Sequence record: MK295203 | Origin: Escherichia phage vB_EcoM_005 | DNA length: 64,000 nt | Reading direction: 5' to 3' (one strand) | Shown: piece by piece, positions 1,908 to 45,664 of the stretch | Numbering within the stretch: position 1 is the stretch's first letter | Layout: each line of letters opens with the position of its first letter | Notes under the pieces: model-generated | What the model was told of the DNA's origin: nothing | The model's input: the letters and a program-made list of their open reading frames with translations, nothing else | Databases searched by the model: none | Program-made: the position numbers and the translations under genes

Positions 1908-2819
1908 ATGACTCGTACTGAATACATCAATGCCTTTACTACGTATATCACTGCTGCCACCCCTCCATTAACCCCATACGAGGTAATAGTTTCTAATATC
2001 AATAAATGGGTAGACCAAATTGATGAAGCACTATCTGGTTGTTTCAAAGATGAAATCGAAAAGATTGCGAGTCGTTTGTTTATTTCTGATATCACGGAAA
2101 CTTTTAAAGGTTCTCGTTTGCTTTCACGCCTGGTCAATAAGGACATCCTTTCAGAGTTTGGCAAAGAGAAACATCCAGGTTCCAGCCATGTTGTTAGCTA
2201 TCAATGGTTTGGTGACGTTTTAAAAAGCTATGTCAAAATTAAAGGTGCCGATCCTAGTGGCCTATTTCCACAACGTTGGGCTGGTGAATTTAAGGCTAAC
2301 TCCGCATTAATTCTAAAAGCAGCAACCAAAACCTTTGTAAAGGGTGATTGTCGTACTATCCACCCTATGGCTAATTGCATGATTAAAACAAACAGCTATA
2401 AAGGGAAGGTACTTATTTCTATTATTTGGTCGCCTAGTCGGAAACCTAAAGAAGTTGAAGTTTCGAAATACCACGATATTTCCTACAATACCCTGAATAT
2501 GGTAGAACAGGCTTTAGCTTTGATGGATACAGTAGAGAAATATGAGATTCAAGAAATCAAACACCACTTAGGCTGGAAAGGATATGAAGTTTTAGTAACA
2601 GTTCGCGAAATCAAATGCCCTGTTCCAAAAACCGACGCTGAAATTTATCAAGAAAAATGTGAGGAAATTGTGAACACTGATAAAGAGCCTGCAACCTTAG
2701 AAGACCTGATTGATGAGCTGAATAGCCCGAGGCTATTGGCCTGTGCACAAATTACTAAATCCAAGTTACCAGAAGTCGTTGCGGACCGTCTTGAACAGGC
2801 TCTGGAGCTGCTGAAATGA
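1908..2819 (+). CDS. hypothetical protein
   Basis: 303 aa; start set at ATG preceded by GAGGAG RBS and early promoter. Confidence 0.5.
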   Translation: MTRTEYINAFTTYITAATPPLTPYEVIVSNINKWVDQIDEALSGCFKDEIEKIASRLFISDITETFKGSRLLSRLVNKDILSEFGKEKHPGSSHVVSYQWFGDVLKSYVKIKGADPSGLFPQRWAGEFKANSALILKAATKTFVKGDCRTIHPMANCMIKTNSYKGKVLISIIWSPSRKPKEVEVSKYHDISYNTLNMVEQALALMDTVEKYEIQEIKHHLGWKGYEVLVTVREIKCPVPKTDAEIYQEKCEEIVNTDKEPATLEDLIDELNSPRLLACAQITKSKLPEVVADRLEQALELLK

Positions 2820-3148
2820 AACAACGTTTAGCTGAAGATATTGCTTCAACAACCAATACAGGTTTATTGGAATTTATTAAAGCCGAGGATGTTGAAGCTG
2901 AATTGGTTGGTAAGATTCATGGTGATGAGTATAGTGATGTCGTTAATTGGGACGCTGTGATGGCCATGGTTGAACGTCGTGAAAAAGCTTCTAAGAACGT
3001 TCCGAACTGTCCTATGTGTGGAACTGAACAGGTCCAGTTGGTTCAATGGCGGCATAATCCACTTCAGTATAAATGTCGCATGTGTAAACACAAATTTGAG
3101 CGAGACGAAAATGGCAAAGCGCAAAGAATATGTAGAGGCGGCCGATAA
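2816..3148 (+). CDS. zinc-ribbon protein
   Basis: CPMCG...CRMCKHKF cysteine pairs; ATGA overlap with upstream gene. Confidence 0.45.
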
Positions 3149-17098: not shown

Positions 17099-19711
17099 AT
17101 GCAAGAATTCTATTTGACAGTCGAACAAATCGGTGATAATATTCTCGAACGTTACATCGATAAAAATGGTAACGAACGTAGTCGTGAAGTTCCTTACAAG
17201 CCTACAATGTTTATGCATGCTAATCCAGAGCAAGCCGTAAAATACATTGATATCTATGGTAAGGGTTGTGTTAAGAAAGAATTCGACTCTATGCGTGATG
17301 CATCCCAATGGATGAAACGTATGGACGATATGGGTCTCGAAGCCCTGGGTATGGACGACTATAAATTAGCCTATTTGTCTGATACCTATCGTAAAGAAAT
17401 CAAATACGATTCTTCTAAGATTCGTATTGCTAACTTCGACATCGAGGTAACATCTCCTGATGGATTCCCTGAACCAGCTCAGGCTAAACATCCTATCGAT
17501 GCCATTACCCACTACGACTCGATTGACGATAAATTCTATGTATTCGACCTTTTAGTTTCACCTTATGGTACCGTTGAAGAGTGGTCTATTAAAATCGCTG
17601 AGAAACTCCAAGAAGAAGGTGGTGACGAAGTTCCACAAGAAATCATTGACAAAATCGTTTATCTTCCGTTTAATTCCGAAGAAGAAATGATGCTTGAGTA
17701 TCTGAATTTCTGGCAGCAGAAAACTCCTGTTATTTTGACTGGTTGGAACGTTGAGTCGTTTGACGTACCATACGTTTATAACCGTCTGAAAAATCTGTTT
17801 GGTGAGAACACTGCTAAGCGATTAAGCCCACACCGTAAGACTCGTGTTAAAGTTATCGAGAACATGTATGGTGCTCGTGAAATTATTACACTGTTCGGTA
17901 TCTCTGTTCTGGATTATATCGACCTTTATAAAAAATTCAGCTTTACCAACCAGCCTTCTTATTCTTTGGATTATGTTTCTGAATATGAATTGAAAGTAGG
18001 TAAGTTGAAATATGATGGTCCAATCTCCAAGTTACGTGAGACGAACCACCAACGATATATTTCCTATAACATTATCGACGTATATCGTGTAGTGCAGATT
18101 GATATGAAACGCCAGTTCATTCTTCTGAGTTTGGACATGGGTTATTATGCTAAGATGCAGATTCAGTCGGTGTTCAGTCCAATTAAGACTTGGGACGCTA
18201 TTATCTTTAATAGCCTTAAAGAACAAGGCAAGGTCATTCCACAAGCTCGTTCACACGTGGTCCAACCTTATCCTGGTGCTTTCGTTAAGGAACCTATTCC
18301 TAACGCATACAAATATGTAATGAGTTTTGACCTTACATCTCTGTACCCGAGTATTATTCGACAAGTGAATATAAGCCCAGAGACCATCGCAGGCACATTC
18401 GCTAATGCACCGATACATGAATATATTGCCGGAACAGCTCCGCGTCCTAGCGACGTCTACAGTTGCTCTCCTAACGGCATGATGTACTATAAAGACCGTG
18501 ATGGTGTGATTCCTACAGAAATCACTAAGGTGTTCTTACAACGTAAAGAACATAAAGGTTATATGCTTGCAGCTCAACGTAATGGCGAGTTAATTAAAGA
18601 AGCATTAGAAAATCCTAATCTGTCAGTTGATAGTCCACTGGATATCGATTATCGTTTTGACTTCTCTGACGAAATCAAAGCCAAGATTAAAACGCTGTCA
18701 GCACCTTCTTTAAAAGAAATGTTGTTCAGAGCCGAACGTACTGAAGTCGCAGGTATGACTGCTCAGATTAACCGTAAGTTGCTTATCAACTCCCTTTATG
18801 GTGCACTTGGTAACGTATGGTTCCGTTACTATGACCTCAGGAACGCAACTGCAATCACACTGTTTGGTCAAATGGCCCTCCAATGGATTGAACGTAAGGT
18901 TAACGAATATCTGAACAGCGTGTGTAAGACTGAAAATCAGAAGTTCGTGCTCTATGGTGATACTGACTCCATTTATGTTAAGGCAGATGCAATCATCAAT
19001 AAAGTAGGCGAAGATAAATTCCGTGACACTAACCACTGGGTCGACTTCTTAGATAAATTTGCACGTGAACGTATGGAACCGGCTATTGATGCAGGCTTCC
19101 GTGAGATGTGCGAGTACATGAACAACAAACAACACTTGATGTTCATGGACCGAGAAGCTATCGCAGGTCCTCCACTTGGTTCTAAAGGTCTTGGTGGATT
19201 CTGGACAGGCAAGAAACGTTATGCACTTAACGTTTGGGACATGGAAGGCACTCGTTATGCCGAACCACACTTGAAAATCATGGGTCTCGAAACTCAGAAA
19301 TCAAGTACACCTAAAGCGGTTCAGAAAGCTCTGAAAGAATGTATCCGTCGTATGCTTCAGGAAGGCGAGGCATCTTTGCAAGAATATTTCAAACAGTTTA
19401 ATAAGGAATTTAACGAACTGGACTATGTAAGCATTGCAGCAGTATCCAGTGCTAACAACATCGAGAAATATAATGAAGGCGGATTGGTATATGTACTGCC
19501 ACTTAAAGAAGGCAACCCATTCGGTGAAGCCTGTATGGCATGGCCGTCAGGTATTGAACTTCCGATTCAGATTCGTGACCAAGTCCTCCGTTGGATGGAC
19601 TACAACGTACTGTTCCAAAAGACCTTTATCAAGCCTCTGACTGGTTTTACCGAGTCTGCTAAAATCGACTACGAGAAAAAAGCAACATTATTTGACATGT
19701 TTGACTTTTAA
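17099..19711 (+). CDS. 43: DNA polymerase gp43 (family B)
   Basis: 870 aa from MQEFYLTVEQIG; exonuclease FDIEV, pol motifs SLYPSII, NSLYG, YGDTDS; closest in my recollection to the RB69 polymerase. Confidence 0.95.
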   Translation: MQEFYLTVEQIGDNILERYIDKNGNERSREVPYKPTMFMHANPEQAVKYIDIYGKGCVKKEFDSMRDASQWMKRMDDMGLEALGMDDYKLAYLSDTYRKEIKYDSSKIRIANFDIEVTSPDGFPEPAQAKHPIDAITHYDSIDDKFYVFDLLVSPYGTVEEWSIKIAEKLQEEGGDEVPQEIIDKIVYLPFNSEEEMMLEYLNFWQQKTPVILTGWNVESFDVPYVYNRLKNLFGENTAKRLSPHRKTRVKVIENMYGAREIITLFGISVLDYIDLYKKFSFTNQPSYSLDYVSEYELKVGKLKYDGPISKLRETNHQRYISYNIIDVYRVVQIDMKRQFILLSLDMGYYAKMQIQSVFSPIKTWDAIIFNSLKEQGKVIPQARSHVVQPYPGAFVKEPIPNAYKYVMSFDLTSLYPSIIRQVNISPETIAGTFANAPIHEYIAGTAPRPSDVYSCSPNGMMYYKDRDGVIPTEITKVFLQRKEHKGYMLAAQRNGELIKEALENPNLSVDSPLDIDYRFDFSDEIKAKIKTLSAPSLKEMLFRAERTEVAGMTAQINRKLLINSLYGALGNVWFRYYDLRNATAITLFGQMALQWIERKVNEYLNSVCKTENQKFVLYGDTDSIYVKADAIINKVGEDKFRDTNHWVDFLDKFARERMEPAIDAGFREMCEYMNNKQHLMFMDREAIAGPPLGSKGLGGFWTGKKRYALNVWDMEGTRYAEPHLKIMGLETQKSSTPKAVQKALKECIRRMLQEGEASLQEYFKQFNKEFNELDYVSIAAVSSANNIEKYNEGGLVYVLPLKEGNPFGEACMAWPSGIELPIQIRDQVLRWMDYNVLFQKTFIKPLTGFTESAKIDYEKKATLFDMFDF

Positions 19712-19713
19712 GT

Positions 19714-19743
19714 GTTTACATACCACATGGAACGTGGTAGTAT
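19714..19743 (+). promoter_or_regulatory. T4-type early promoter
   Basis: GTTTAC 19714-19719, TAGTAT 19738-19743, CCTATCAAC leader. Confidence 0.5.
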
Positions 19744-19774
19744 CCTTCCTATCAACTACTTAGAGGAAATTACA

Positions 19775-20011
19775 ATGGAAGCTTTAATCGTTAGTGCTGG
19801 TGTTTTAGGATTCGGTTCTCTGGCTATTATGTTCATTGGTTACTTTTTACCATGGATTTTAGCTCTTCTGCGAGGCACTCGTAGTAATGTAGGAATTTTC
19901 TTCCTTAATCTCCTGTTAGGTTGGACGATGATTGGTTGGGTAGTGGCTTTAATCTGGGCTATCGCTGCTGAACGTAAATCAAATGCACAAATCATTATTG
20001 TTAAACAGTAA
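19775..20011 (+). CDS. small two-TM membrane protein at the T4 imm position (Imm-like by synteny)
   Basis: 78 aa, two hydrophobic helices, directly downstream of gene 43. Confidence 0.5.
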   Translation: MEALIVSAGVLGFGSLAIMFIGYFLPWILALLRGTRSNVGIFFLNLLLGWTMIGWVVALIWAIAAERKSNAQIIIVKQ

Positions 20012-20020
20012 GGGAATCCA

Positions 20021-20521
20021 ATGAAAAAGTTAATTATCGCAATGAGTATGCTCCTATCAGGTTGCGCAGTCCAATATGGTGATGCAGTTTCGGCCGATGA
20101 AGTTGGTAAAGCTCGTATCGCAGCTGAACAGAAACAATTCGATGGCGAAATGAAATTCCGTGCAGGTTCAGGACTTGTGTATACCCGAGCTAATAATCAA
20201 TGTGGTAATAACTGTGCAAAATATGCTCAACATGAAATCGAATTCCAACGTGAACAAGAGTCCAAGCGTGAAGCGGTACTAGCCAAACACCAGGCAGAAA
20301 TGAAGCGCCAAGATGATTTGTATAAAAAGCAGAAATTGTATGCGATGTGCGTAAACCATATCAATCTACAGATTTCTATCCATGAGGCCCGTTATTACGA
20401 AATGCTCGAAACCGAGAGCTTTGATAAGGCCCGTGATTATAAGAAACAAATCAATAAGCTCAAGACCAAAGTGCCGGCAGCAATAGAACAGTGTATCGAA
20501 ATCGGTAAAGATAAGATTTAA
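20021..20521 (+). CDS. predicted lipoprotein
   Basis: signal peptide with lipobox LLSGC; 166 aa. Confidence 0.5.
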   Translation: MKKLIIAMSMLLSGCAVQYGDAVSADEVGKARIAAEQKQFDGEMKFRAGSGLVYTRANNQCGNNCAKYAQHEIEFQREQESKREAVLAKHQAEMKRQDDLYKKQKLYAMCVNHINLQISIHEARYYEMLETESFDKARDYKKQINKLKTKVPAAIEQCIEIGKDKI

Positions 20522-20581
20522 GCAGTATCAATTTATTAAAAATAGTGTATAATGTACCTACATTCACTTGAGGAACAGATA

Positions 20582-22255
20582 ATGAAAAAGGTTGTTATTT
20601 TAGGCGCAGGTCTTGGCTCACGGTTGTATCCAATTACTAACGAAATCCCGAAGGTATTGGTTAACTACAAACAACATACAGTACTAAAACATTTATATGA
20701 TTTGTATAGTAACCAATCAGATGAAATTATTCTGGTTATTCACAGCAAATTTAACGACCTCGTTAAAGGCTATATTAAATCCATTAACATGATTAATAGT
20801 GATAAGCCTAAATTCACTATTCGTAACGTAGATGTGGCCAATGGTTCAGCTCATGCTATCGATTGCATTGCTGAAGATATCATTGGCCATAACGTCCTGT
20901 TTAACTGGTGTGACATCATTCCTGAGGGTCATAAAGTTGAGTGGGATAACGACTACTGTTATACCTACGGGACTGACTGTCGTTTTACATTTGAAGAACC
21001 GTACTTGCGTGAAATTGGTACTGGCGGTGGCGTGGTTGGTTTGTATCAGGTGGCTAATTGGACAGGTTTCGACCGTTCTAATTATGGTGAAGACCTTGCC
21101 GATAACCTAGATTCAATGGTCTATTTGACTGAACGTAAGCTAGACTTTGTAGTTGATGTCGGTGACAAATTGAAACTGGCTAAGGCCCATGAAGAATCCG
21201 AAATTAACCGTGAATTTAATAAATTAGAGTTCACTGAGAATCTGGCTATTAAAGTACCAACTAACGAATTAGGTAAAGAAATCCAATCTAAAGAAATCAA
21301 TTGGTATAATTCTATTGATTCTGAATTTGTTCCGAGCATTGTAGACTTTGCTCCAGGCGAATTCATTAAAATGGAACGTATCTTTGGTCGCACCATGGCA
21401 GATGCCTACCGGTTTATGTCTAAAGAAACTAAAGTCCTCATGGTTTATAAGGTCATTAGTGCATTACGTTCATTCGGTGGAACTATCGATAACCCATCTG
21501 ATGAGCAATGGTATTCCGATGTTAAGAAAGAAGTATTGGACAAGGTCCTGATTCGTAATGCTTCTATTGCCGGATTGATTGAAGGCTTTGCTCCACAGGG
21601 TATTACCCATGTCAATGACTTTAAGGTAGGCGACCCTGAAAAACTTCTTCGTCATGCACTAGAAATTCTGTCTGAACATAAAGAACCGTACCAACTTATT
21701 CATGGCGACCCGCACTACAGTAATATTATGTTGTCTGACGAAGGTGATATTAAAATCATCGACCCACGTGGTTATTTTGGTAATAGTTCTAAAGGCCCTG
21801 CGATTTATGATGAAGCTAAGGTGCTTTATTCTATCGATGGTTATGACAAATTTAACTCTGACCCTCTATGGGGTGGCTTAACCCGTAACGGAACTCGTGT
21901 ATTCGTTGATATTGAAAAGGTCATGCCTTTAGACGATATTCCGATGTGTACATTTAAGCACAAGCTCTGGATTGCTGTTATCTGGATGGCATTGGCAGGT
22001 TACTTTAAAAATAACCCTCTGAAAGCTCTGGGTGCTTATTACAATGGGCTATATCAACTGAGCGTGCTGCTGAAGCGGCATCCTCGTAAGCGTAAGCTTA
22101 TCACAGGTGAATTTGTCGATGAAGTTCGTGACCCTATTACGGCTCAAATTATCACTCGTTGTCCTGATAAGTGGGTTTTGCTTGACCAAGAAACTGGTGT
22201 AAAATATAAACCTACAGGTTCTACTGAACTCCACAAACAATGGAAGAAAATTTAA
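20582..22255 (+). CDS. bifunctional sugar-1-phosphate nucleotidyltransferase / APH-family kinase
   Basis: N-terminal ILGAGLGSRLYPIT...PK (sugar nucleotidyltransferase signature); C-terminal HGDPHYSNIML...IIDPRGYFG (aminoglycoside/choline-kinase-like catalytic loop). Confidence 0.6.
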   Translation: MKKVVILGAGLGSRLYPITNEIPKVLVNYKQHTVLKHLYDLYSNQSDEIILVIHSKFNDLVKGYIKSINMINSDKPKFTIRNVDVANGSAHAIDCIAEDIIGHNVLFNWCDIIPEGHKVEWDNDYCYTYGTDCRFTFEEPYLREIGTGGGVVGLYQVANWTGFDRSNYGEDLADNLDSMVYLTERKLDFVVDVGDKLKLAKAHEESEINREFNKLEFTENLAIKVPTNELGKEIQSKEINWYNSIDSEFVPSIVDFAPGEFIKMERIFGRTMADAYRFMSKETKVLMVYKVISALRSFGGTIDNPSDEQWYSDVKKEVLDKVLIRNASIAGLIEGFAPQGITHVNDFKVGDPEKLLRHALEILSEHKEPYQLIHGDPHYSNIMLSDEGDIKIIDPRGYFGNSSKGPAIYDEAKVLYSIDGYDKFNSDPLWGGLTRNGTRVFVDIEKVMPLDDIPMCTFKHKLWIAVIWMALAGYFKNNPLKALGAYYNGLYQLSVLLKRHPRKRKLITGEFVDEVRDPITAQIITRCPDKWVLLDQETGVKYKPTGSTELHKQWKKI

Positions 22256-22638
22256 TGTCGCATCGAGTAGAAAATAAGCCCCATTTATGTTTTGACATCG
22301 ATAATACAATCACGGTTTGGAACCATGACCGTGATTACGAAAACTTTAAACCGGACACCGAAATGGTGTCCATGATTAATAAGCTTTATGATGAAGGGTA
22401 CGAGATTACATTGTTCACTGCTCGTGGTATGACTTCATGTGGCCCTGGTCGAATCTTGGTTGAAGTAGTTCCTGCATTGGTTAAGAACCTTGAAAAGATT
22501 GGATTGAAATATCATAATCTGCTTACACATAAGCCGAGTTATACTTTTATCATCGATGACCGAGCAATCCGTCCTGACCACTTTAAAGAAATGGTTCGTG
22601 AAGGAACTCTTGAAACCTATAAGGCATATCATCCATGA
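22255..22638 (+). CDS. small HAD-superfamily phosphatase
   Basis: motif I FDIDNTIT (DxDxT), motif II TLFTARG, C-terminal IIDDR; 127 aa. Confidence 0.5.
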   Translation: MSHRVENKPHLCFDIDNTITVWNHDRDYENFKPDTEMVSMINKLYDEGYEITLFTARGMTSCGPGRILVEVVPALVKNLEKIGLKYHNLLTHKPSYTFIIDDRAIRPDHFKEMVREGTLETYKAYHP

Positions 22639-23171
22639 AACCAAAAATCATTGTTATCGACGGCCCGGATAATTCCGGGAAGTCCACTTTAATTGAATCA
22701 CTTTTATCTGATAAGAAATATCGTCTTATTGATTTTCCTAAAAAGATTAACGGTAAATGCATTTCATTAGGGACCGATAATGACAAGGCTTTAGTCGAGA
22801 CGTTGTATAAGTTTTTAGACCCTAATTTTGTCTACATCTTAGACCGTGGGTATCCTAGTAATATTGTTTACTCGGGATTCCTTCGTGGTGAAATGGACCC
22901 TTATGTAGAACTGGAAGATTGGAAAGGGTTTAAATCTGAATTCAATATTATTGAGGTTATTTTAACCCGTAACCCATTAGATGAAGACTTCGAAGATGAC
23001 CTTATTAAATTAACCAAAGATGAGTTCAACCTAACTATCCGGCAGTATGAAACATGTTTTGAAAACGTGTTTAAAATCTTAAATCACGACGGCCATAATA
23101 ATTTGCTTAATGTTGATATGGTAGAATTAAAACGTCTGAATGAATATATTGAAAATAAGGTGAATAAATGA
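22635..23171 (+). CDS. P-loop kinase (dNMP/thymidylate-kinase-like)
   Basis: N-terminal Walker A IVIDGPDNSGKST; 178 aa. Confidence 0.5.
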   Translation: MKPKIIVIDGPDNSGKSTLIESLLSDKKYRLIDFPKKINGKCISLGTDNDKALVETLYKFLDPNFVYILDRGYPSNIVYSGFLRGEMDPYVELEDWKGFKSEFNIIEVILTRNPLDEDFEDDLIKLTKDEFNLTIRQYETCFENVFKILNHDGHNNLLNVDMVELKRLNEYIENKVNK

Positions 23172-23866
23172 AACACATTACCGCTGTTAGTTTTGAAAAC
23201 GCGTTTAAGCAAATGAACGAAGAAATCCTGGAAGCTCCACAGTTTGCAGTTGATTCTCGTATCGGCCGTTGTTATGAAATTGGTTCTGCTTCGGTAGAAG
23301 TACTGGATGCAAGCACCTATAAATTCACCGACCCTCGTATTAATCGTATCAACTATGATTATGCCGAATCTTTCTGGAAATTTATGATTTCTGGTGGTAC
23401 TGATGCCGCCGAAGCATTTAAGGAATACCCTAATGTTGCTAAGTTCATTGATAAGCCGAAAAGTGACGTATTGCCTGCAAACTTCAACACTTTCTATGGA
23501 CCTCGAATTGTGGCCCAACTCCCAGCCCTACTTAAAGAGCTTAAAGAAAAGCCTAACTCGAGACGAGTTGTGTTCCAAATTCTCCAAGAACAAGACCAAG
23601 CTCTCCTTGATTCTGACGAATCCTTAGAATATCCGTGTACCGATTCGGTAACATATTATATTCGTGATGGACGTCTGTATGCACACACTCATATGCGTTC
23701 ACAGAACTGTGCTATCGTTATGCAGCTGGATTTCTATCTGCAGGGTAAACTGATGGCCTTTATTGCTGAACAGTGTGGTGTTGGTCTGGGTACGTATTCC
23801 CATACTATGGTTAGTGCACACGTGTTTGAACGTGATTTTGACTACGTTCGAGGATTCCTGAAATGA
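23168..23866 (+). CDS. thymidylate-synthase-fold pyrimidine hydroxymethylase (gp42-like)
   Basis: catalytic Cys context EYPCTDSVTYYIRD and MRSQN..D align with my recollection of T4 gp42 (FMCTNTVQYLIRD / MRSND); much more divergent from T4 than neighbouring core genes. Confidence 0.6.
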   Translation: MKHITAVSFENAFKQMNEEILEAPQFAVDSRIGRCYEIGSASVEVLDASTYKFTDPRINRINYDYAESFWKFMISGGTDAAEAFKEYPNVAKFIDKPKSDVLPANFNTFYGPRIVAQLPALLKELKEKPNSRRVVFQILQEQDQALLDSDESLEYPCTDSVTYYIRDGRLYAHTHMRSQNCAIVMQLDFYLQGKLMAFIAEQCGVGLGTYSHTMVSAHVFERDFDYVRGFLK

Positions 23867-24657
23867 GTCTGTTTATCGTTCCTATTTTCAGTATGCGTAG
23901 TTACGAAACAGGTGAATATGCCGTCCTTAAGGACGGTAATTTTCAACTCCATTTAAACCGTGCTCGCCCAGGTGATTATCTGGCTTATCCTAGAAATTCG
24001 AGCGATATCAAAGAATGTATTGAATTGTTTCCTGAACTGAATTTTGTGCCACTTTGGTATAAAGAAAATGCTTATGAAACTCGTAAACATTTTTGGTCTG
24101 AAAATGAGTTCGTCGTTGATTCATTAATTGAATACTATGACTGTTCAGGCTTAGTAACCGATATCACAGGTTATGATGGCACTCAGACTGTACAATTCAA
24201 CTTTAACATTACAATGGACCCTGAAGTTCCTCGTTATTATATCGATGAGTTTATTGATATCGACGTGTCTTCAGTTGAACGTTCGATTTATACTACAGTC
24301 CTGAATCAATGCCAGAAAGACGTCCTGGTGTCACGAGGTGCGTCCTCTGATAAGATTTTTGTAGACCAAAAGGTAATTAATCCCGCAGTAATTGAGCGTT
24401 ACTCTGAAGGTCTAGCGCCTATTAAAATTGATGGTATTTTCCATCCATTCCGTATCTCAGATAAATGCTACCAATTCGAAAGAGTTGTAGACCAAGCTGC
24501 GGCCGTATATTATCAGATTCTGAAATCAAGACCTCATATCATTTATCATGAGAATCCTGGTTTAGTATTCCATCCTGGTCTGGCTGAATTCATTTATTTC
24601 GGTGCCCACATCCATTCTGAGCACGAAATGCCAAGTTATGAGGACGTAGTATGCTAG
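23863..24657 (+). CDS. hypothetical protein at the T4 beta-gt position (candidate DNA glycosyltransferase)
   Basis: 264-aa ORF between gp42-like gene and uvsX; contains a DxD-like FIDIDVSS motif; no confident fold assignment. Confidence 0.45.
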   Translation: MSLFIVPIFSMRSYETGEYAVLKDGNFQLHLNRARPGDYLAYPRNSSDIKECIELFPELNFVPLWYKENAYETRKHFWSENEFVVDSLIEYYDCSGLVTDITGYDGTQTVQFNFNITMDPEVPRYYIDEFIDIDVSSVERSIYTTVLNQCQKDVLVSRGASSDKIFVDQKVINPAVIERYSEGLAPIKIDGIFHPFRISDKCYQFERVVDQAAAVYYQILKSRPHIIYHENPGLVFHPGLAEFIYFGAHIHSEHEMPSYEDVVC

Positions 24658-31690: not shown

Positions 31691-31719
31691 CACAATTAAG
31701 CGTATGCAACGATTAGTTG

Positions 31720-32370
31720 ATGCTGGCGAAAGGGTTCTATTCTGGGACAAGAGGAAAATTAAGAGGTTCTAAGCGGTCTTTATCATATTATACGGAAGAA
31801 CACCATGTTATACCTAGATGTATGAATGGTTCTGATGATAAAAACAATTTAGTTGCTTTATTGCCAAGAGAACACTTTGTAGCTCATAGGCTTTTAACAA
31901 AAATATATCCCGAAGTAAAAGGTCTACATTATGCTGTTAATTTAATGAGATATAATAAAGGAGTTAAATTAACTAGTAGAACTATAGCCACGTTAAGAGA
32001 AAATAACGCTAAAGCATTTTCAGGAAAAAATAACCCGATGTTTGGTAAACCTTCCTGGATTAGAGGGATGAAAACTCCTGAAGAAACTAAAGCCAAAATG
32101 CGCCTGGCTCATAAAGATAAAATTATATCTGATGAAGCCAAGGCCAATATGAGTAAAGCTAGAAAAGGAAGATTTAGTGGTAAAGATTCCCCTAGATATG
32201 GTTTGCCAAATCCTAGGCGTGGAGAAATATGGAATAGTTACGATATGCTTTATGAATTATGGGTTTACAATAATAAACCTAAACGCACCAAATTTAATAA
32301 AATAGCTGTTGATAATGGATATCCTGATATTTGTTATCGACGAATGATAGAAAACTTTAATAGGAAATAA
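31720..32370 (+). CDS. HNH homing endonuclease
   Basis: EEHHVIPRCMNGSDDKNNLVALLPREHFVAH (HNH motif); NUMOD-like repeats; first ATG lies inside the last codons of the primase fragment in another frame. Confidence 0.65.
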   Translation: MLAKGFYSGTRGKLRGSKRSLSYYTEEHHVIPRCMNGSDDKNNLVALLPREHFVAHRLLTKIYPEVKGLHYAVNLMRYNKGVKLTSRTIATLRENNAKAFSGKNNPMFGKPSWIRGMKTPEETKAKMRLAHKDKIISDEAKANMSKARKGRFSGKDSPRYGLPNPRRGEIWNSYDMLYELWVYNNKPKRTKFNKIAVDNGYPDICYRRMIENFNRK

Positions 32371-32374
32371 TATA

Positions 32375-32512
32375 ATGGCATTTTTTAACGAATGTAGTGG
32401 TTTGATTTCTGGTGTTGATAAAGCTGAGGAAGCTTATTTTAATGCTCTGATTCACGAAGATAATTTATTTATTCGCTTTAATCTAACAGTTTATAATTAT
32501 CTAACTTATTAA
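32375..32512 (+). pseudogene. dCTPase gp56 N-terminal fragment (diverged partial duplicate)
   Basis: MAFFNECSGLISGVDKAEEAYFNALIHED then out-of-family tail; 52 bp identical to the start of the next copy. Confidence 0.5.
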
Positions 32513-32535
32513 TGAATTGAAAAAGGAAAAATATA

Positions 32536-32955
32536 ATGGCACACTTTAACGAATGCGCAAACCTGATTGCTGGTGTTGATAAAGCTGAGGAAGCTTATTT
32601 TAATGCTCTGATTCACGAAGATAAGGACCCTCTGCAGGTTATGTTGCGTGAACAGAAAGATTGTATTGACGATGAATTCCGTGAACTTCTGACTTCCCTC
32701 GGTGAAATGTCTAAAGGTGAGAAAGATGCATCTGCTGTATGGAAAAAATGGAAAGCCCGTTACCCGGAAGCACAAGCCAAACCTATTTCAGAAATGTCTC
32801 CTGAAGACCAGCTTGAAATTAAATTTGAACTCATTGATATTATGCACTTCGTATTCAATATGGCTATTGGCTTGAATATGTCGGCTGAAGAAATGTTTAA
32901 ACTTTATTACCTGAAAAATAAACACAACTTTGAACGCCAGGACAATGGATATTAA
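32536..32955 (+). CDS. 56: dCTP pyrophosphatase gp56 (MazG-like), copy 1
   Basis: 139 aa; MAHFNECA..., KDCIDDEFRELLTSLGEMS, EDQLEIKFELIDIMHF, KLYYLKNKHNF match my recollection of T4 gp56; lacks about 32 internal residues relative to T4. Confidence 0.8.
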   Translation: MAHFNECANLIAGVDKAEEAYFNALIHEDKDPLQVMLREQKDCIDDEFRELLTSLGEMSKGEKDASAVWKKWKARYPEAQAKPISEMSPEDQLEIKFELIDIMHFVFNMAIGLNMSAEEMFKLYYLKNKHNFERQDNGY

Positions 32956-33379
32956 TTTCAAATCCGTTCTTAAAGAAAAGTTCCCGCAATGGGAACTTTT
33001 AGAAGATAAACCTGAATATAACCGTCATCCTGATGACTTGGCTACTGCAGGTGAAGTTGTTGATTGGTTGCGCAATCAGAAAGATTATATTGATGATGAA
33101 TTCCGCGAACTTCTGACTTCTCTTGGTGGCATGAGCAATGGCGAAAAAGATGCGAGCGCTGTATGGAAGCCTTGGAAAGCTCAACATGCTGAACGTCGTG
33201 AAACCCTGATTAACGATTTGTCTCCTGAAGACCAGCTCGAAATTAAATTCGAAATGATTGATATTCTGCACTTTGTTCTGAATATGTTCCAAGGTCTTGG
33301 ACTGACTGCTGAAGAAATCTTTAAACTGTATTACCTGAAAAATAAACACAACTTTGAACGCCAGGACAATGGATATTAA
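32945..33379 (+). CDS. 56: dCTP pyrophosphatase gp56 (MazG-like), copy 2 with a different N-terminus
   Basis: 144 aa; carries the HPDDLATAGEVVDWLRNQKDYIDDEF segment missing from copy 1 but lacks the MAHFNEC N-terminus; last 90 nt identical to copy 1. Confidence 0.7.
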   Translation: MDINFKSVLKEKFPQWELLEDKPEYNRHPDDLATAGEVVDWLRNQKDYIDDEFRELLTSLGGMSNGEKDASAVWKPWKAQHAERRETLINDLSPEDQLEIKFEMIDILHFVLNMFQGLGLTAEEIFKLYYLKNKHNFERQDNGY

Positions 33380-33412
33380 TTTCAAATCCGTTCTTAAAGA
33401 AAAGTTCCCGCA

Positions 33413-34210
33413 ATGGGAACTTTTAGAGGTCATGATTACTTAAAAATTATAGATAAGTATAAACTAAACGTCCATACCAAATCTAAAACTGAAGCTCATC
33501 ATATACTTCCGAAGTGTGCATTTCCAGAATACAGCGATTTTAAAATCTCTCCTTGGAATAGGGTGTATCTTCCTATATACCAACACATATATGTTCATTA
33601 TCTTTTGTGCTCAACTAAGGTGTCGGGTTTGCTTAATGCATTCCAGAGAATGACACTAACAAATAGTGCCCAGTTTAAGAAGCTTTCTGATTTAGAGAAA
33701 GACCTTACTATTAAGTTATGGGCCGATAAACGTGGGGAGTGGATAGAGCAAGACATTCTCCGTAAAAGAAAATCCTTTATGTATTCTAATTTTGATTTCT
33801 GGTATAATGACTGGATTTCGCGGGATATGCCTCGCTATCGAAGATATTGGGGAGTTTTGGTTGAAGAAAATAATCCGGAAGTTTTAGGTACCCACAAAAA
33901 TAGTTTATTGACAGTGGTAAAAGATTTTTGTTTGAGATACGCAGAAGAACATAATTTATCTGAAGAAGAAGTTTTGAGTCTTCAAAAATTAAAACAGTCT
34001 TCAGAAAAAGCTTTAAAAGATAAAGGAAAAACTTTAAGTAAAACTGCTAGAGGCAATCAACTCAAATGGAATTATGAAACTGAGCTTAGGAATTTATGGA
34101 TTGCTAATAACAAACCAAAATATGTGAATTTCAGAAAGCTAGTGGTTAGCTTAGGCTACCCGGATGAAAATTATATAAACATGATAAAGAGGTTTGAAAA
34201 TGGGTTCTGA
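33413..34210 (+). CDS. HNH homing endonuclease
   Basis: TEAHHILPKCAFPEYSD...NRVYLP...HIYVH (HNH motif); start codon lies within a 92-bp repeat derived from gene 56. Confidence 0.65.
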   Translation: MGTFRGHDYLKIIDKYKLNVHTKSKTEAHHILPKCAFPEYSDFKISPWNRVYLPIYQHIYVHYLLCSTKVSGLLNAFQRMTLTNSAQFKKLSDLEKDLTIKLWADKRGEWIEQDILRKRKSFMYSNFDFWYNDWISRDMPRYRRYWGVLVEENNPEVLGTHKNSLLTVVKDFCLRYAEEHNLSEEEVLSLQKLKQSSEKALKDKGKTLSKTARGNQLKWNYETELRNLWIANNKPKYVNFRKLVVSLGYPDENYINMIKRFENGF

Positions 34211-43141: not shown

Positions 43142-44989
43142 ATGATTAAGAATGAAATTAAAGTACTGTCCGACATTGAACATATCAAAAAACGTAGTGG
43201 GATGTATATTGGCTCCAGTGCTAATGAAGCTCACGGTCGATTCCTGTTTGGTAATTTTACACAGGTAAACTATGTTCCTGGACTGGTTAAATTAATTGAC
43301 GAAATCATTGATAACTCTGTCGATGAAGCTATTCGTACCAATTTTAAATTCGCAAACAAAATTGATGTTCAAATTAAGAATAACCAGGTTTCGGTTTCTG
43401 ATAATGGTCGTGGTATTCCACAAGCAATGGTTACCGACCAAAACGGTGAACAGATTCCAGGTCCTGTAGCCGCATGGACTATTCCAAAGGCAGGTGGTAA
43501 CTTTGGAGATGACGCTGAGCGTAAGACAGGTGGCATGAATGGTGTCGGTAGTAGTTTAACTAATATCTTCTCTGTTTTGTTCACAGGCATCACCTCTGAT
43601 GGTGAGAATGAGATTACTGTCAACTGTTCCAATGGAATGGAAAACAAAGGTTGGTCTACTAAGAAATCTAAAGGTAAGGGTACTTCGGTTATATTCACTC
43701 CGGACTTTAATCATTTCGAAGAAAATAGCCTGTCACAAATTTATCTGGATATTACATTAGACCGATTGCAAACTCTGGCCGTAATTTATCCTGATATTCA
43801 ATTTACTTTTAATGGTAAAAAAGTAGATGGCAACTTTAAAAAGTATGCTAAGCAATTTGGTGAAGACTTTGTAATCCAAGAAACTGATAACGTTTCGATG
43901 GCATTTACTCCTTCTCCGGATGGGTTCCGTCAACTGACTTATGTAAACAATATCCACACCAAGAATGGCGGTCACCACGTTGAATGCGTATTCGATGATA
44001 TCTGTGAGCACCTTCTGCCAGGTATTAAAAAGAAATACCGTGGAATTGAAGTGACTAAAGCTCGTGTTAAAGAATGCCTTACGATGGTGATGTTCATTCG
44101 TGATATGAGCAACATGCGTTTTGATTCACAGACTAAAGAGCGCTTAACATCTCCTTTTGGTGAGATTCGTAATCATATCCAAATTGATGCTAAGAAAATT
44201 GCCACAGCTATTCTTAAGGTCGATGGGTTGATTATGCCTATCGTTGAAGCCGCTTTAGCACGTAAATTAGCAGCTGAAAAGGCCGCCGAAACTAAAGCCG
44301 CTAAGAAAGCTTCTAAAGCCAAGGTCCATAAGCATATTAAAGCTAACTTATATGGCAAAGATGCTGATACAACCCTGTTCCTAACCGAAGGTGATTCCGC
44401 TATGGGTCCTTTCATTGAAGTTCGTAATAAAGACCTTCAAGGCGGTTACCCATTACGTGGTAAGGTTATGAATACCTGGGGAATGACAGCAACAGATATC
44501 ATGAAGAACAAGGAACTATTTGATATCTGTGCAATCACTGGATTGGTTATTGGTGAACCTGCAGAGAAAACCAACTATCGTAATATCGCCATCATGACCG
44601 ATGCCGATGTGGATGGTACTGGTTCGATTTATCCATCATTGCTAGCCTTCTTTAGTCAATGGCCTGAATTGTTCGAACAAGGCCGAGTACGATTCTGTAA
44701 AACTCCGGTGATTATTGCTCAGGTTGGTAAAGAACAAGAATGGTTCTATGATGTGCCTAGTTATACCAAAGCTAAGGACTCTCTACCAAAACACTCCATT
44801 CGTTATATCAAAGGACTAGGTTCTCTTGAGAAGGCTGAATACCGTCGAATGATTCAAGACCCTAAATTTGATGTTGTTCAATTACCTGAAGATTGGAAAG
44901 AACAGTTTGAAATGCTCCTTGGTAATGACCCTCAACTCCGCACGGTTATATCTGGACTGATACTAGACCTCAGTTTGCAGAATACGTGA
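43142..44989 (+). CDS. 39: topoisomerase II ATPase subunit gp39 (GyrB-like), continuous ORF
   Basis: 615 aa; ATPase and TOPRIM-region motifs; covers the region split into 39 and 60 in T4. Confidence 0.9.
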   Translation: MIKNEIKVLSDIEHIKKRSGMYIGSSANEAHGRFLFGNFTQVNYVPGLVKLIDEIIDNSVDEAIRTNFKFANKIDVQIKNNQVSVSDNGRGIPQAMVTDQNGEQIPGPVAAWTIPKAGGNFGDDAERKTGGMNGVGSSLTNIFSVLFTGITSDGENEITVNCSNGMENKGWSTKKSKGKGTSVIFTPDFNHFEENSLSQIYLDITLDRLQTLAVIYPDIQFTFNGKKVDGNFKKYAKQFGEDFVIQETDNVSMAFTPSPDGFRQLTYVNNIHTKNGGHHVECVFDDICEHLLPGIKKKYRGIEVTKARVKECLTMVMFIRDMSNMRFDSQTKERLTSPFGEIRNHIQIDAKKIATAILKVDGLIMPIVEAALARKLAAEKAAETKAAKKASKAKVHKHIKANLYGKDADTTLFLTEGDSAMGPFIEVRNKDLQGGYPLRGKVMNTWGMTATDIMKNKELFDICAITGLVIGEPAEKTNYRNIAIMTDADVDGTGSIYPSLLAFFSQWPELFEQGRVRFCKTPVIIAQVGKEQEWFYDVPSYTKAKDSLPKHSIRYIKGLGSLEKAEYRRMIQDPKFDVVQLPEDWKEQFEMLLGNDPQLRTVISGLILDLSLQNT

Positions 44990-45074
44990 CTATTACAGTC
45001 GAAACATGGGACGGCGAAGTTTACCAAACCCGCGGACAAGTCTATAAGGTCGATTCAAGTAACTAAACTAATAA

Positions 45075-45092
45075 GGGCCTTCGGGCCCTTTT
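45075..45092 (+). terminator. rho-independent terminator
   Basis: GGGCC-TTCG-GGCCC hairpin followed by TTTT. Confidence 0.5.
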
Positions 45093-45096
45093 CGGG

Positions 45097-45126
45097 GTTT
45101 ACAAAGACCTGTGGTTATGATAGGAT
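45097..45126 (+). promoter_or_regulatory. possible early promoter
   Basis: GTTTAC 45097-45102 with TATGAT/TAGGAT -10 candidates. Confidence 0.35.
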
Positions 45127-45143
45127 TATCTAGAGGTGAGAAT

Positions 45144-45467
45144 ATGATTATGCAAGATAACAGTATAGTAAACACGGACAACCTGGCTTTATCCTTTATG
45201 GAAACTGCCATACGAAATTGTAAGGATGAAGGAATAGTGACTACAAGCGGTAAGGGACTTGAATACCTTAAGGCTGTAAAATCTATTGCCTTAAAGATTA
45301 AAGATAACCAGGCGCTCTCTCCTGTGGTCCAGGAAAAGGTTTTAGAGATAATGTATCGCCATCGGGAGCACAAGAGTACAATGGGTGCTATGAGAAGAAT
45401 TCTGGCTGAACTGGGTTCTACCAGAGAATATGTTCAACATGAGATAGTTAAAAATGACAAACTTTAA
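45144..45467 (+). CDS. hypothetical protein
   Basis: 107 aa; ATG after AGAGGTGAG RBS. Confidence 0.4.
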   Translation: MIMQDNSIVNTDNLALSFMETAIRNCKDEGIVTTSGKGLEYLKAVKSIALKIKDNQALSPVVQEKVLEIMYRHREHKSTMGAMRRILAELGSTREYVQHEIVKNDKL

Positions 45468-45657: not shown

Positions 45658-45664
45658 GAAAAAT

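What the first reader, a model, noticed from the sequence alone, without database searches (positions are those of the whole stretch)
20582..24657. Five-gene nucleotide/sugar cassette at the T4 gene 42 / beta-gt position: candidate DNA hypermodification pathway
Between the Imm-like gene after polymerase 43 and uvsX, where T4 carries only gene 42 and beta-gt, this genome has: a fused sugar-1-phosphate nucleotidyltransferase / APH-type kinase (20582-22255), a small HAD phosphatase (22255-22638), a P-loop kinase (22635-23171), a thymidylate-synthase-fold hydroxymethylase that is far more diverged from T4 gp42 than neighbouring core genes (23168-23866), and a 264-aa unknown (23863-24657). The genes are tightly packed with 4-nt overlaps, consistent with one operon. 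The logic (phosphatase releases a free sugar, anomeric kinase makes sugar-1-P, nucleotidyltransferase makes NDP-sugar, a transferase adds it to hydroxymethyl-pyrimidine DNA) would give a non-glucose sugar modification. An arabinosyl-hmC modification has been reported for RB69-like phages, but the sugar cannot be deduced from sequence and, as far as I can tell, this biosynthetic route has not been characterised.
Basis: partly seen in the sequence, partly recalled or inferred. Interest (0 to 1): 0.85.

Follow-up and report, generated by a model that had tools for sequence, protein, structure and literature searches.

The report
Known arabinosyl-5-hydroxycytosine DNA modification cassette
The five genes are real and are this phage's copy of a DNA-sugar-coating pathway (arabinose on 5-hydroxycytosine) that was worked out in related phages in 2025-2026, so it is a correct catch but no longer new.

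Summary
The five ORFs exist as described. The window is Escherichia phage vB_EcoM_005, a JS98/IME08-type Dhakavirus. The cassette is orthologous to the RB69 gp45-gp53 / HY126 Afh cluster, which makes arabinosylated 5-hydroxycytosine (not hydroxymethylcytosine).

- The thymidylate-synthase-fold protein is 79% identical to RB69 gp48, a validated flavin- and O2-dependent 5-hydroxy-dCMP synthase. It carries the diagnostic D169N signature.
- The HAD protein matches PDB 9IQW.
- The fused nucleotidyltransferase/kinase is AfhE-like.
- The "264-aa unknown" is a GT-B glycosyltransferase, the proposed first arabinosyltransferase.

Lee et al. (NAR 2026) already list Dhakaviruses as carrying this syntenic cluster.

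Three points go beyond the finding:
1. Dhakaviruses have a minimal version: no arabinose-5-P isomerase, no second transferase, no U32-like gene.
2. Their AfhE is a divergent subtype shared only with Marfa- and Bragaviruses, which also show no isomerase next to the cassette.
3. The 264-aa ORF is 33 aa short because of one of about 13 gaps of 98-99 nt in this deposited assembly. One of those gaps lies in DNA polymerase, so this is an artefact, not biology.

The parts
20582..22255 (+). AfhE-like bifunctional enzyme. The N-terminal domain is a sugar-1-phosphate nucleotidyltransferase (GAGLGSRL, aa 8-15). The C-terminal domain is an APH/choline-kinase-type sugar kinase (HGDPHYSN, aa 374-381). Predicted functions: D-arabinose-5-P 1-kinase plus UDP-arabinofuranose pyrophosphorylase. 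It belongs to a divergent 'type B' subtype.
   Evidence: Pfam PF00483 and PF01636. It is 44% identical to RB69 gp53 and 41% to gp52. It belongs to phrog_4098. It is 71-80% identical to Marfa/Braga homologs but only 41-48% to all others. Bacterial homologs occur fused to HAD and SIS (A5P isomerase) domains. The biochemical function is taken from the HY126 AfhE work as cited in PMC13326640.
22255..22638 (+). AfhF-like small HAD phosphatase (DIDNT, aa 14-18; IIDD, aa 99-102). Predicted to remove the 5-phosphate of arabinose-1,5-bisphosphate.
   Evidence: It is 63% identical to RB69 gp51. It matches PDB 9IQW at E=5e-55 and TIGR01689 at 1.4e-14. The function is taken from PMC13326640.
22635..23171 (+). 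Thymidylate-kinase-like P-loop nucleotide kinase (Walker A GPDNSGKS, aa 10-17; LDRG, aa 69-72). The substrate is unknown. The inferred role is phosphorylation of 5hodCMP or a glycosylated derivative.
   Evidence: It is 37% identical to RB69 gp45 and belongs to phrog_761. It gives a weak PDB hit to YorR, 2axp. It is co-conserved with the TS homolog and the transferase in most of the 50 loci examined, including about 14 that show no sugar-activation genes in the DNA held.
23168..23866 (+). 5-hydroxy-dCMP synthase: a thymidylate-synthase-fold, flavin- and O2-dependent dCMP C5-hydroxylase. In E. coli ThyA numbering it has the catalytic Cys (YPCT, aa 155-158), L143E, D169N (MRSQN, aa 176-180), N177D (QLDF) and E58F.
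   Evidence: It is 78.8% identical to RB69 gp48. It matches PDB 9IQU/9IQC/9IR2 at E about 1e-125, against E=5e-6 for T4 gp42. The signature residues come from the L-INS-i alignment. D169N was validated as diagnostic in PMC13326640.
23863..24657 (+). GT-B fold glycosyltransferase, ortholog of RB69 gp46:47, the proposed first (base-proximal) DNA arabinosyltransferase. In this deposit it is shortened from 297 to 264 aa.
24503..24506 (+). Junction of a 99-nt (33-codon) gap inside the transferase gene. The gap removes the near-invariant TDPN motif, K246 and two beta-strands. It is judged to be an assembly or deposit artefact.
   Evidence: Alignments to IME08, ABTNLsp5 and SHP1. The 264-aa form is unique to this deposit, where all relatives listed are 297-300 aa. 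The lost motifs are shown. The AF2 model of the 264-aa form loses confidence at residues 197-203. Eleven gaps of exactly 99 nt and two of 98 nt lie across the window, including one in gene 43.
20548..20574 (+). Putative -10 element (TATAAT, 20548-20553) and Shine-Dalgarno sequence (GAGGA, 20570-20574) ahead of the first cassette gene.
   Evidence: Read directly from the sequence. The consensus scan gave no enrichment over shuffled sequence, so this is only a suggestion.
32375..33379 (+). Gene 56 (dCTPase/dUTPase) region. It supplies dCMP and excludes dC from DNA, so it is the upstream step of the same pathway. Here it appears in an odd fragmented and duplicated arrangement.
   Evidence: tblastn with RB69 gp56 gives three pieces. 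ORFs are listed. Comparison with the single gene 56 of IME08 is.

Best explanation
The cassette is the Dhakavirus version of the phage pathway that replaces cytosine in virion DNA by O-arabinosylated 5-hydroxycytosine. The proposed steps follow; what is shown and what is inferred is stated after them.

1. The phage dCTPase (gene 56, elsewhere in the window) supplies dCMP.
2. The TS-fold enzyme (23168-23866) hydroxylates C5 of dCMP with O2 and a flavin, giving 5-hydroxy-dCMP.
3. The product is phosphorylated. A T4-type gp1 dNMP kinase is present in the relative IME08; its position falls outside this window. The cassette's own thymidylate-kinase-like kinase (22635-23171) probably contributes. 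DNA polymerase then incorporates the nucleotide.
4. In parallel, the C-terminal kinase domain of the AfhE-like protein (20582-22255) phosphorylates D-arabinose-5-phosphate at C1. The substrate must be host-derived, because no isomerase gene was found in the window or in the complete genome of the close relative IME08. The HAD phosphatase (22255-22638) removes the 5-phosphate. The N-terminal nucleotidyltransferase domain then makes UDP-arabinofuranose.
5. The GT-B transferase (23863-24657) puts one arabinose on the 5-OH. With only one transferase in the genome, the predicted product is mono-arabinosyl-5hoC.

Shown experimentally, but in orthologs: step 2 (RB69 gp48, DLP3 gp80 and nine other D169N enzymes) and step 4 (HY126 AfhE and AfhF).

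Inferred by orthology: that these activities apply to this phage, the identity of the sugar, the role of the transferase, and the role of the cassette kinase.
For: - The window is a JS98/IME08-type Dhakavirus.
- Every cassette protein has its best characterised relative in the RB69 arabinosylation cluster: TS 79%, HAD 63%, transferase 69% and 49%, AfhE 44% and 41%, kinase 37%.
- The TS homolog hits PDB 9IQU/9IQC/9IR2 at E=1e-125, and the HAD protein hits 9IQW at 5e-55.
- The TS homolog carries C146, L143E, D169N, N177D and E58F. T4 gp42, phage td and E. coli ThyA all keep D169 and E58. D169N is the experimentally validated diagnostic residue (PMC13326640).
- The transferase family is GT-B.
- Catalytic motifs are intact in the four upstream proteins, and there are no gaps against IME08 across 19486-24503.
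- TS, transferase and kinase are co-located in most of the 50 loci examined. AfhE and HAD accompany them in 25 of those loci, mostly T4-like genomes.
- Bacterial fusions of AfhE-like, HAD and SIS domains link the family to arabinose-5-P.
- Lee et al. list Dhakaviruses among the genera with the syntenic cluster.
- No RB69 gp3, gp50 or gp55 homolog exists in the window or in the whole IME08 genome.
Against: - I found no direct chemical analysis of any Dhakavirus DNA, so arabose identity is by orthology only; that is, the identity of the sugar as arabinose rests on orthology.
- The AfhE here is a divergent subtype, 41-48% identical to every AfhE from phages with proven arabinosyl-5hoC. It occurs only in lineages where I saw no phage arabinose-5-P isomerase.
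- The first-transferase activity has not been reconstituted in vitro for any homolog. Lee et al. saw no activity of single transferases on 5hoC DNA and could not say whether the first sugar goes on the nucleotide or on DNA.
- The transferase ORF as deposited lacks 33 conserved residues.
- The two primary papers, Mahler 2025 and He 2026, could not be read. Their content is used second-hand.
Confidence: 0.8

Rival explanations
1. Same architecture, different sugar. The divergent 'type B' AfhE of Dhaka-, Marfa- and Bragaviruses would use another sugar phosphate than arabinose-5-P, for example ribose-5-P or a xylulose- or ribulose-derived pentose. That would explain why these phages need no arabinose-5-P isomerase. 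The DNA would then carry a non-arabinose pentosyl-5hoC.
For: - Type B AfhE proteins are 71-80% identical to each other but only 41-48% to all others. The others, including those of Acinetobacter and Pseudomonas phages, are 48-78% identical among themselves.
- None of the three type B lineages shows the isomerase next to the cassette. L031, whose polymerase is 95% identical to that of Bragavirus Pm5461, has the isomerase and a type A AfhE.
- No Dhakavirus DNA chemistry was found in the literature searched.
Against: - The HAD phosphatase and the transferase are not outliers. HAD is 58-71% identical to type A lineages. The transferases of Pm5461 and L031 are 87% identical despite their different AfhE types. 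A change of donor sugar would be expected to show up in both proteins.
- E. coli, Klebsiella and Proteus make arabinose-5-P for Kdo synthesis (established knowledge), so a phage isomerase is dispensable.
- The nearest non-type-B AfhE is that of Serratia phage 92A1 (47%). According to PMC13326640, that phage carries arabinosylated 5hoC.
Confidence: 0.12
2. One reading: a gp42-like dCMP hydroxymethylase makes hmC, and the sugar is attached to the hydroxymethyl group, as was originally reported for RB69.
For: - The protein has the TS fold and the dCMP-specifying N177D, as T4 gp42 does.
- The 2018 RB69 paper (PMC6024577) reported arabinosyl-hmC.
Against: - The protein has D169N and E58F where all folate-dependent members keep Asp and Glu.
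- It is 79% identical to RB69 gp48, which was shown to make 5hodCMP with 18O from O2.
- It is only 25% identical to T4 gp42.
- The 2018 assignment has been explicitly corrected (PMC13326640; PMC13390438).
Confidence: 0.03
3. The 33-aa deletion in the transferase is real. This isolate would then carry unglycosylated 5-hydroxycytosine, or rely on another transferase.
For: - The deletion is in frame.
- It is flanked by imperfect 7-mers, GGCTGAA and GGTTGAA.
- The 264-aa protein is what the public record encodes.
Against: - Eleven gaps of exactly 99 nt and two of 98 nt lie in the same 64 kb. Most have an odd base at the junction. One removes 33 residues from the essential DNA polymerase.
- The deposit is 155 kb, against about 170 kb for relatives.
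- The missing segment holds residues conserved in at least 90% of 33 homologs.
Confidence: 0.04
4. The cassette serves something other than DNA modification, such as host envelope sugar metabolism, capsule mimicry, or nucleotide or NAD salvage.
For: Database names such as 'phosphoheptose isomerase', 'capsule biosynthesis phosphatase', 'thymidylate kinase' and 'RNA polymerase binding protein'.
Against: - These names are transferred annotations, not tested functions.
- The genes sit at the gene 42 / beta-gt locus, fused in one operon with a dCMP-modifying enzyme.
- Their orthologs are experimentally tied to DNA arabinosylation.
Confidence: 0.01

Closest known systems
RB69 gp45-gp55 / phage HY126 Afh cluster (arabinosyl-5-hydroxycytosine; Mosigvirus; Lee et al. 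NAR 2026, He et al. Nat Chem Biol 2026, Mahler et al. Cell Host Microbe 2025)
   Same: - Same locus, between gene 43/imm and uvsX.
- Orthologs of the 5hodCMP synthase (79%), the HAD phosphatase (63%), the NTase/kinase fusion (41-44%), the TMPK-like kinase (37%) and the first GT-B transferase (49-69%).
- Same active-site signature in the TS homolog.
   Different: - No arabinose-5-P isomerase (gp55), no U32-peptidase-like gp50, no gp49, and no second transferase (gp3) anywhere in the window or in the IME08 genome.
- The kinase sits upstream of the TS gene instead of downstream of the transferase.
- AfhE is a divergent subtype.
- The predicted product is mono-arabinosyl, not the mono/di mixture of RB69.
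Shewanella phage Thanatos cluster (TH1_060 to TH1_063)
   Same: - A single GT-B transferase of about 300 aa next to a D169N-type TS homolog and a 561-aa NTase/kinase fusion.
- Reported as mono-pentosylated (mono-arabinosylated according to PMC13326640). It is therefore the best model for a one-transferase cassette.
   Different: - Thanatos AfhE is only 44% identical to the window's and groups with type A.
- The host and the phage lineage are different.
- The original paper assigned TH1_063 a UDP-xylose pyrophosphorylase activity.
T4 gene 42 / alpha-gt / beta-gt glucosyl-hydroxymethylcytosine system
   Same: - Same genomic position and same logic: dCTPase, then a TS-fold enzyme modifying dCMP, then a kinase, then polymerase incorporation, then a GT-B transferase using a UDP-sugar.
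   Different: - The chemistry at C5 is flavin- and O2-dependent hydroxylation, not folate-dependent hydroxymethylation (D169N and E58F; 25% identity).
- The sugar is a phage-made UDP-pentose rather than host UDP-glucose.
- The linkage is an aryl ether rather than a hydroxymethyl glycoside.
Rhizobium phage RL38J1 (Pootjesviridae) hexosyl-5-hydroxycytosine cluster
   Same: It has the kinase / GT / D169N TS-homolog triad, gp214-216. The same triad is what I find conserved in about 14 metagenomic viral contigs that show no AfhE or HAD in the DNA held.
   Different: - It uses galactose and glucose, with a UDP-galactopyranose mutase, rather than arabinose.
- It has no AfhE or AfhF.
- It is not a T4-like phage.

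Membership tests
[quoted passage not shown] | Thymidylate synthase fold with the catalytic Cys (E. coli ThyA C146) | tested here: met
   PF00303 at 4.8e-14. Cys is conserved in YPCT, aa 155-158.
[quoted passage not shown] | Asn in place of Asp169, the diagnostic D169N residue validated on 11 enzymes in PMC13326640 | tested here: met
   The L-INS-i alignment gives N in the window protein and in all six cassette homologs, and D in T4 gp42, IME08 td and E. coli ThyA. The pairwise phmmer alignment to ThyA was ambiguous by a 2-residue offset. The multiple alignment and the HMMER alignment to MilA agree with each other.
[quoted passage not shown] | dCMP specificity (N177D) and an acidic residue at L143 | tested here: met
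   D at position 177 and E at position 143.
[quoted passage not shown] | Close sequence relationship to an enzyme of demonstrated activity or solved structure | tested here: met
   78.8% identity to RB69 gp48. E=1.5e-125 to PDB 9IQU/9IQC/9IR2.
[quoted passage not shown] | Flavin cofactor and O2-derived oxygen in the product | not testable with these tools
   This needs biochemistry. It has been shown for RB69 gp48 and the HY126 enzyme only.
T4 gp42-type dCMP hydroxymethylase | Retention of the folate-chemistry residues Asp169 and Glu58 (T4 E60), and close similarity to gp42 | tested here: not met
   Position 169 is N and position 58 is F. Identity to T4 gp42 is 25% over 159 aa. PDB 1B49 scores E=4.7e-6, against 1e-125 for the hydroxylase.
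AfhE (bifunctional arabinose-5-P 1-kinase / UDP-arabinose pyrophosphorylase) | N-terminal sugar-1-P nucleotidyltransferase domain fused to a C-terminal APH-type kinase domain with catalytic motifs | tested here: met
   PF00483 covers residues 3-100 and PF01636 covers residues 346-417. GAGLGSRL and HGDPHYSN are present.
AfhE (bifunctional arabinose-5-P 1-kinase / UDP-arabinose pyrophosphorylase) | Orthology to the characterised enzymes over full length | tested here: inconclusive
   There is a full-length match to RB69 gp53 plus gp52, but at only 44% and 41% identity. The protein forms a separate subtype with the Marfa and Braga homologs. No HY126 AfhE sequence was available for comparison.
AfhE (bifunctional arabinose-5-P 1-kinase / UDP-arabinose pyrophosphorylase) | Substrates: arabinose-5-P, ATP and UTP | not testable with these tools
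   Only indirect evidence exists: bacterial homologs are fused to SIS (A5P isomerase) and HAD domains.
AfhF (HAD phosphatase of arabinose-1,5-bisphosphate) | HAD motifs (DxDxT nucleophile, downstream DD) and close similarity to the solved or characterised protein | tested here: met
   DIDNT at aa 14-18 and IIDD at aa 99-102. PDB 9IQW at E=5.1e-55. 63% identity to RB69 gp51.
First DNA arabinosyltransferase (RB69 gp46:47 / DLP3 gp79 family) | GT-B fold | tested here: met
First DNA arabinosyltransferase (RB69 gp46:47 / DLP3 gp79 family) | Family-invariant residues, including FxPFR and the TDPN loop | tested here: not met
   FHPFR is present. TDPN and K246 lie in the 33 residues missing from the ORF as deposited. 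I attribute this to an assembly artefact, so the failure concerns the record and probably not the phage.
First DNA arabinosyltransferase (RB69 gp46:47 / DLP3 gp79 family) | Transfer of arabinofuranose from UDP-Araf to 5hoC | not testable with these tools
   This has not yet been reconstituted for any member.
Cassette nucleotide kinase (RB69 gp45 family, thymidylate-kinase-like) | Walker A P-loop, the DR(Y/G) NMP-binding motif, and synteny with the TS homolog and transferase | tested here: met
   GPDNSGKS and LDRG are present. phrog_761 at 1.4e-39. 37% identity to gp45. It is co-located with the TS homolog and transferase in most of the 50 loci examined.

The most novel reading that the evidence does not exclude
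Dhaka-, Marfa- and some Bragaviruses carry a distinct 'type B' sugar-activation module: a divergent AfhE with no phage arabinose-5-P isomerase nearby. This module either draws on a different sugar phosphate, and so decorates 5-hydroxycytosine with a pentose other than arabinose, or it is a higher-affinity variant specialised to tap the host's small Kdo-pathway arabinose-5-P pool. In addition, the strictly co-conserved thymidylate-kinase-like kinase could mean that the first sugar is added at the nucleotide level, with this kinase then handling the bulky glycosylated dNMP.
Probability: 0.12. Interest if true: 0.55.

Novelty: already known. Interest (0 to 1): 0.22.

Why it matters
Hypermodified cytosines determine which restriction, CRISPR and type IV defence systems a therapeutic or laboratory phage can evade. 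Knowing that JS98/IME08-type coliphages are predicted to carry arabosyl-5-hydroxycytosine, that is arabinosyl-5-hydroxycytosine rather than hmC, therefore matters for host-range prediction, for cloning and sequencing, and for phage engineering.

For this particular finding the value is mostly corrective. It links a poorly annotated cassette ("phosphoheptose isomerase", "RNA polymerase binding protein") to a pathway published in 2025-2026. It also warns that the public vB_EcoM_005 record contains systematic gaps of about 99 nt that truncate genes.

The residual open questions are modest but testable. They are the substrate of the divergent AfhE, the role of the kinase, and whether the first sugar is added to the nucleotide or to DNA.

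Tried and rejected
1. I first treated the 33-aa deletion in the transferase as a possibly real, isolate-specific loss of glycosylation. I rejected this after a window-wide comparison with IME08 showed eleven gaps of exactly 99 nt and two of 98 nt, most with one odd base at the junction, including one inside DNA polymerase.
2. I tested whether the missing 99-mers are GC-rich, which would suggest sequencing drop-out on modified C. They are not: 0.41 against a genome value of 0.40.
3. I looked for remnants of a second arabinosyltransferase, an arabinose-5-P isomerase or the U32-like gene, in the window and in the whole IME08 genome. Nothing scored better than E about 1.
4. Pairwise MAFFT and phmmer alignments of the TS homolog to E. 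coli ThyA disagreed by two residues around position 169. A 10-sequence L-INS-i alignment resolved this.
5. The consensus promoter and terminator scan gave counts no higher than shuffled sequence, so it provides no support for or against a single operon.
6. The primary papers by Mahler et al. 2025 and He et al. 2026 are not held in the library.
7. The text search for 'ara-hC' returned only unrelated hepatocellular-carcinoma papers. No paper mentions vB_EcoM_005.
8. No close PDB relative was found for the transferase, the AfhE-like protein or the kinase.

Full report
**Observation**

The first gene starts at the ATG at 20582, which is preceded by GAGGA and, further upstream, by a TATAAT. The junctions are a 1-nt TAATG overlap at 22255 and 4-nt ATGA overlaps at 22635, 23168 and 23863.

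Profile searches confirm the domain calls:
- ORF1 has NTP_transferase and APH kinase domains.
- ORF2 is a HAD-type "capsule biosynthesis phosphatase" relative.
- ORF3 is a thymidylate-kinase-like P-loop protein.
- ORF4 has the thymidylate synthase fold.
- The 264-aa ORF gives no Pfam hit.

T4 carries 42, beta-gt and segA at this position. The TS-fold protein is 25% identical to T4 gp42, whereas the flanking polymerase, UvsX and Imm are 59%, 67% and 47% identical to their T4 counterparts.

**Source of the window**

All five proteins match entries of Escherichia phage vB_EcoM_005 exactly. The DNA is 94-97% identical to JS98/JS10/IME08/Bp7-type phages of the genus Dhakavirus.

**What the cassette is**

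tblastn with RB69 proteins shows that each ORF is the ortholog of a gene in the RB69 gp45-gp53 cluster:
- The TS homolog matches gp48 at 78.8%.
- The HAD protein matches gp51 at 63%.
- The fusion protein matches gp53 plus gp52 at 44% and 41%. These two are a single gene in RB69, split in the record by a sequencing error (PMC6024577).
- The kinase matches gp45 at 37%.
- The 264-aa ORF matches gp47 plus gp46 at 69% and 49%. This too is a single gene in RB69.

That cluster was characterised in 2025-2026. RB69 and Acinetobacter phage DLP3 DNA contain mono- to tri-arabinosylated 5-hydroxycytosine, with the sugar ether-linked directly to C5. The TS homolog is a 5-hydroxy-dCMP synthase that uses O2 and a flavin. 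HY126 AfhE is a bifunctional arabinose-5-P kinase and UDP-arabinose pyrophosphorylase. AfhF is the Mg-dependent phosphatase acting between those two steps (PMC13326640; this paper cites He et al. 2026 and Mahler et al. 2025). The same paper lists Dhakaviruses among the genera that carry the syntenic cluster.

**Tests on the window's own sequences**

The TS homolog hits PDB 9IQU/9IQC/9IR2 at E about 1e-125, but T4 dCMP hydroxymethylase only at 5e-6. The HAD protein hits 9IQW at 5e-55.

I made a 10-sequence alignment with E. coli ThyA, phage td, T4 gp42 and six cassette homologs. The window protein keeps the catalytic Cys146. It has L143E and N177D, which indicate a dCMP substrate. It has Asn at position 169 and Phe at position 58, where all folate-dependent members keep Asp and Glu. 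D169N was experimentally validated as diagnostic for hydroxylases.

The catalytic motifs of the nucleotidyltransferase, the APH-type kinase, the HAD protein and the P-loop kinase are intact.

**The shortened transferase is an artefact of the record**

The window's transferase gene lacks 99 nt that are present in IME08, SHP1, ABTNLsp5 and every other relative. The loss removes the near-invariant TDPN loop, K246 and two beta-strands. The model of the 264-aa form loses confidence around the invariant FxPFR segment.

This looked at first like an isolate-specific loss of glycosylation. A comparison of the whole window with IME08 changed that view. It shows eleven gaps of exactly 99 nt, two of 98 nt and four longer ones, most with one odd base at the junction. 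One of them removes 33 residues from the essential DNA polymerase, which is 870 aa here against 903 aa in relatives. The deposit is 155 kb, against about 170 kb for relatives. The missing pieces are not compositionally unusual.

I conclude that the truncation is an assembly or deposit artefact. The four upstream cassette genes align to IME08 without any gap.

**How the Dhakavirus version differs**

Neither the window nor the complete IME08 genome encodes a homolog of the RB69 arabinose-5-P isomerase (gp55), the U32-like gp50 or the second arabinosyltransferase gp3. The phage should therefore depend on host arabinose-5-P. KdsD and GutQ supply it in Enterobacterales; this is established knowledge. 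With a single transferase, the phage should make mono-arabinosyl-5hoC, as reported for Shewanella phage Thanatos.

I examined 50 related loci from viral contigs:
- The triad of TS homolog, transferase and kinase is the conserved core. It is present even in about 14 metagenomic contigs that show no AfhE or HAD in the DNA held. This parallels the hexosylating Rhizobium phage RL38J1.
- AfhE and HAD form the arabinose-specific module.

The AfhE proteins of Dhakavirus, Marfavirus and Bragavirus Pm5461 form a distinct subtype (L016 is Klebsiella phage Marfa and its megablast also finds Pm5461). They are 71-80% identical to each other but only 41-48% to all other AfhE proteins. The other AfhE proteins are 48-78% identical among themselves, leaving aside two distant metagenomic loci.

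These are also the lineages in which I saw no phage isomerase. L031, a relative of Pm5461 with a 95% identical polymerase, has the isomerase together with a conventional AfhE. The HAD protein and the transferase do not follow this split. For that reason I favour the view that the sugar is the same and the sugar-activation module was exchanged. A different sugar is the less likely alternative.

**Verdict**

- The route has now been characterised and has already been extended to Dhakaviruses by comparative genomics.
- I found no direct chemistry on Dhakavirus DNA, so the identity of the sugar and the mono-arabosyl (mono-arabinosyl) prediction remain inferences.

I file this as already known, with low interest. 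A small residual chance remains that the divergent sugar-activation module hides a different pentose.

Noticed in passing
window, junctions at about 1440, 2782, 5818, 12296, 12774, 16915, 19485, 24503, 35708, 46748 and 51626 (99 nt each); 44940 and 53958 (98 nt); 3794, 38787, 40156 and 52847 (127-255 nt): The deposited vB_EcoM_005 sequence lacks blocks of about 99 nt relative to IME08 at many sites, most with one odd base at the junction, as if 100 nt had been replaced by 1 nt. The missing blocks are not GC-biased. Any ORF in this record that looks 33 aa short should be distrusted.
   Followed up: yes
window 17099-19711 (gene 43), junction at 19485: The DNA polymerase is 870 aa here, against 903 aa in RB69 and all relatives. 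One of the 99-nt gaps removes a C-terminal (thumb-region) segment. The same artefact affects the transferase gene.
   Followed up: partly
window 31717-34210: The gene 56 (dCTPase) region is abnormal. It holds a 29-codon N-terminal fragment (32375-32461), then a complete but diverged and shorter copy (32536-32955, 139 aa), then a copy covering residues 40-173 (32975-33376). These lie between a mobE-like HNH gene (31717-32370) and a second HNH gene (33413-34210) that IME08 lacks at this site. A repeated 'MNARTMDINFKSVLKEKFPQWELLE' ORF start occurs at 32930 and 33354. This could be homing-endonuclease-driven duplication, or a co-assembly of two alleles.
   Followed up: partly
L010-L017, L029 and L031, compared with L018-L033: Dhaka-, Marfa- and Bragavirus Pm5461 share a divergent AfhE subtype and show no arabinose-5-P isomerase next to the cassette. 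L031, whose polymerase is 95% identical to that of Pm5461, has the isomerase and a conventional AfhE. The sugar-activation module therefore seems to be exchanged horizontally, independently of the TS/transferase core.
   Followed up: partly
L035-L050 (IMG/VR metagenomic viral contigs): About 14 contigs carry the triad of TS homolog, GT-B transferase and P-loop kinase but show no AfhE, HAD, isomerase, T4-type polymerase or UvsX in the DNA held (several of these contigs are short). They are probably non-T4-like phages that glycosylate 5-hydroxycytosine with a host-made or different NDP-sugar.
   Followed up: no
proteins P0240, P0251 and P0266: These are bacterial or metagenomic proteins of 922-946 aa. 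They fuse an AfhE-like nucleotidyltransferase/kinase to HAD and SIS (arabinose-5-P isomerase) domains. This is a Rosetta-stone link between the three activities outside phages, and it suggests a cellular UDP-arabinofuranose pathway.
   Followed up: no
window 44941-45665; IME08 2436-3016: In RB69 the interval between gene 39 and rIIA.1 holds the second arabinosyltransferase, gp3. In Dhakaviruses the same interval is about 0.5 kb, is unannotated in IME08, and has no detectable similarity to gp3.
   Followed up: partly
window 20021-20521: A 166-aa ORF with a lipoprotein-like N-terminus (MKKLIIAMSMLLSGC) lies between imm and the cassette, at the position of T4/RB69 imm.1. It belongs to phrog_1754, of unknown function.
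   Followed up: no
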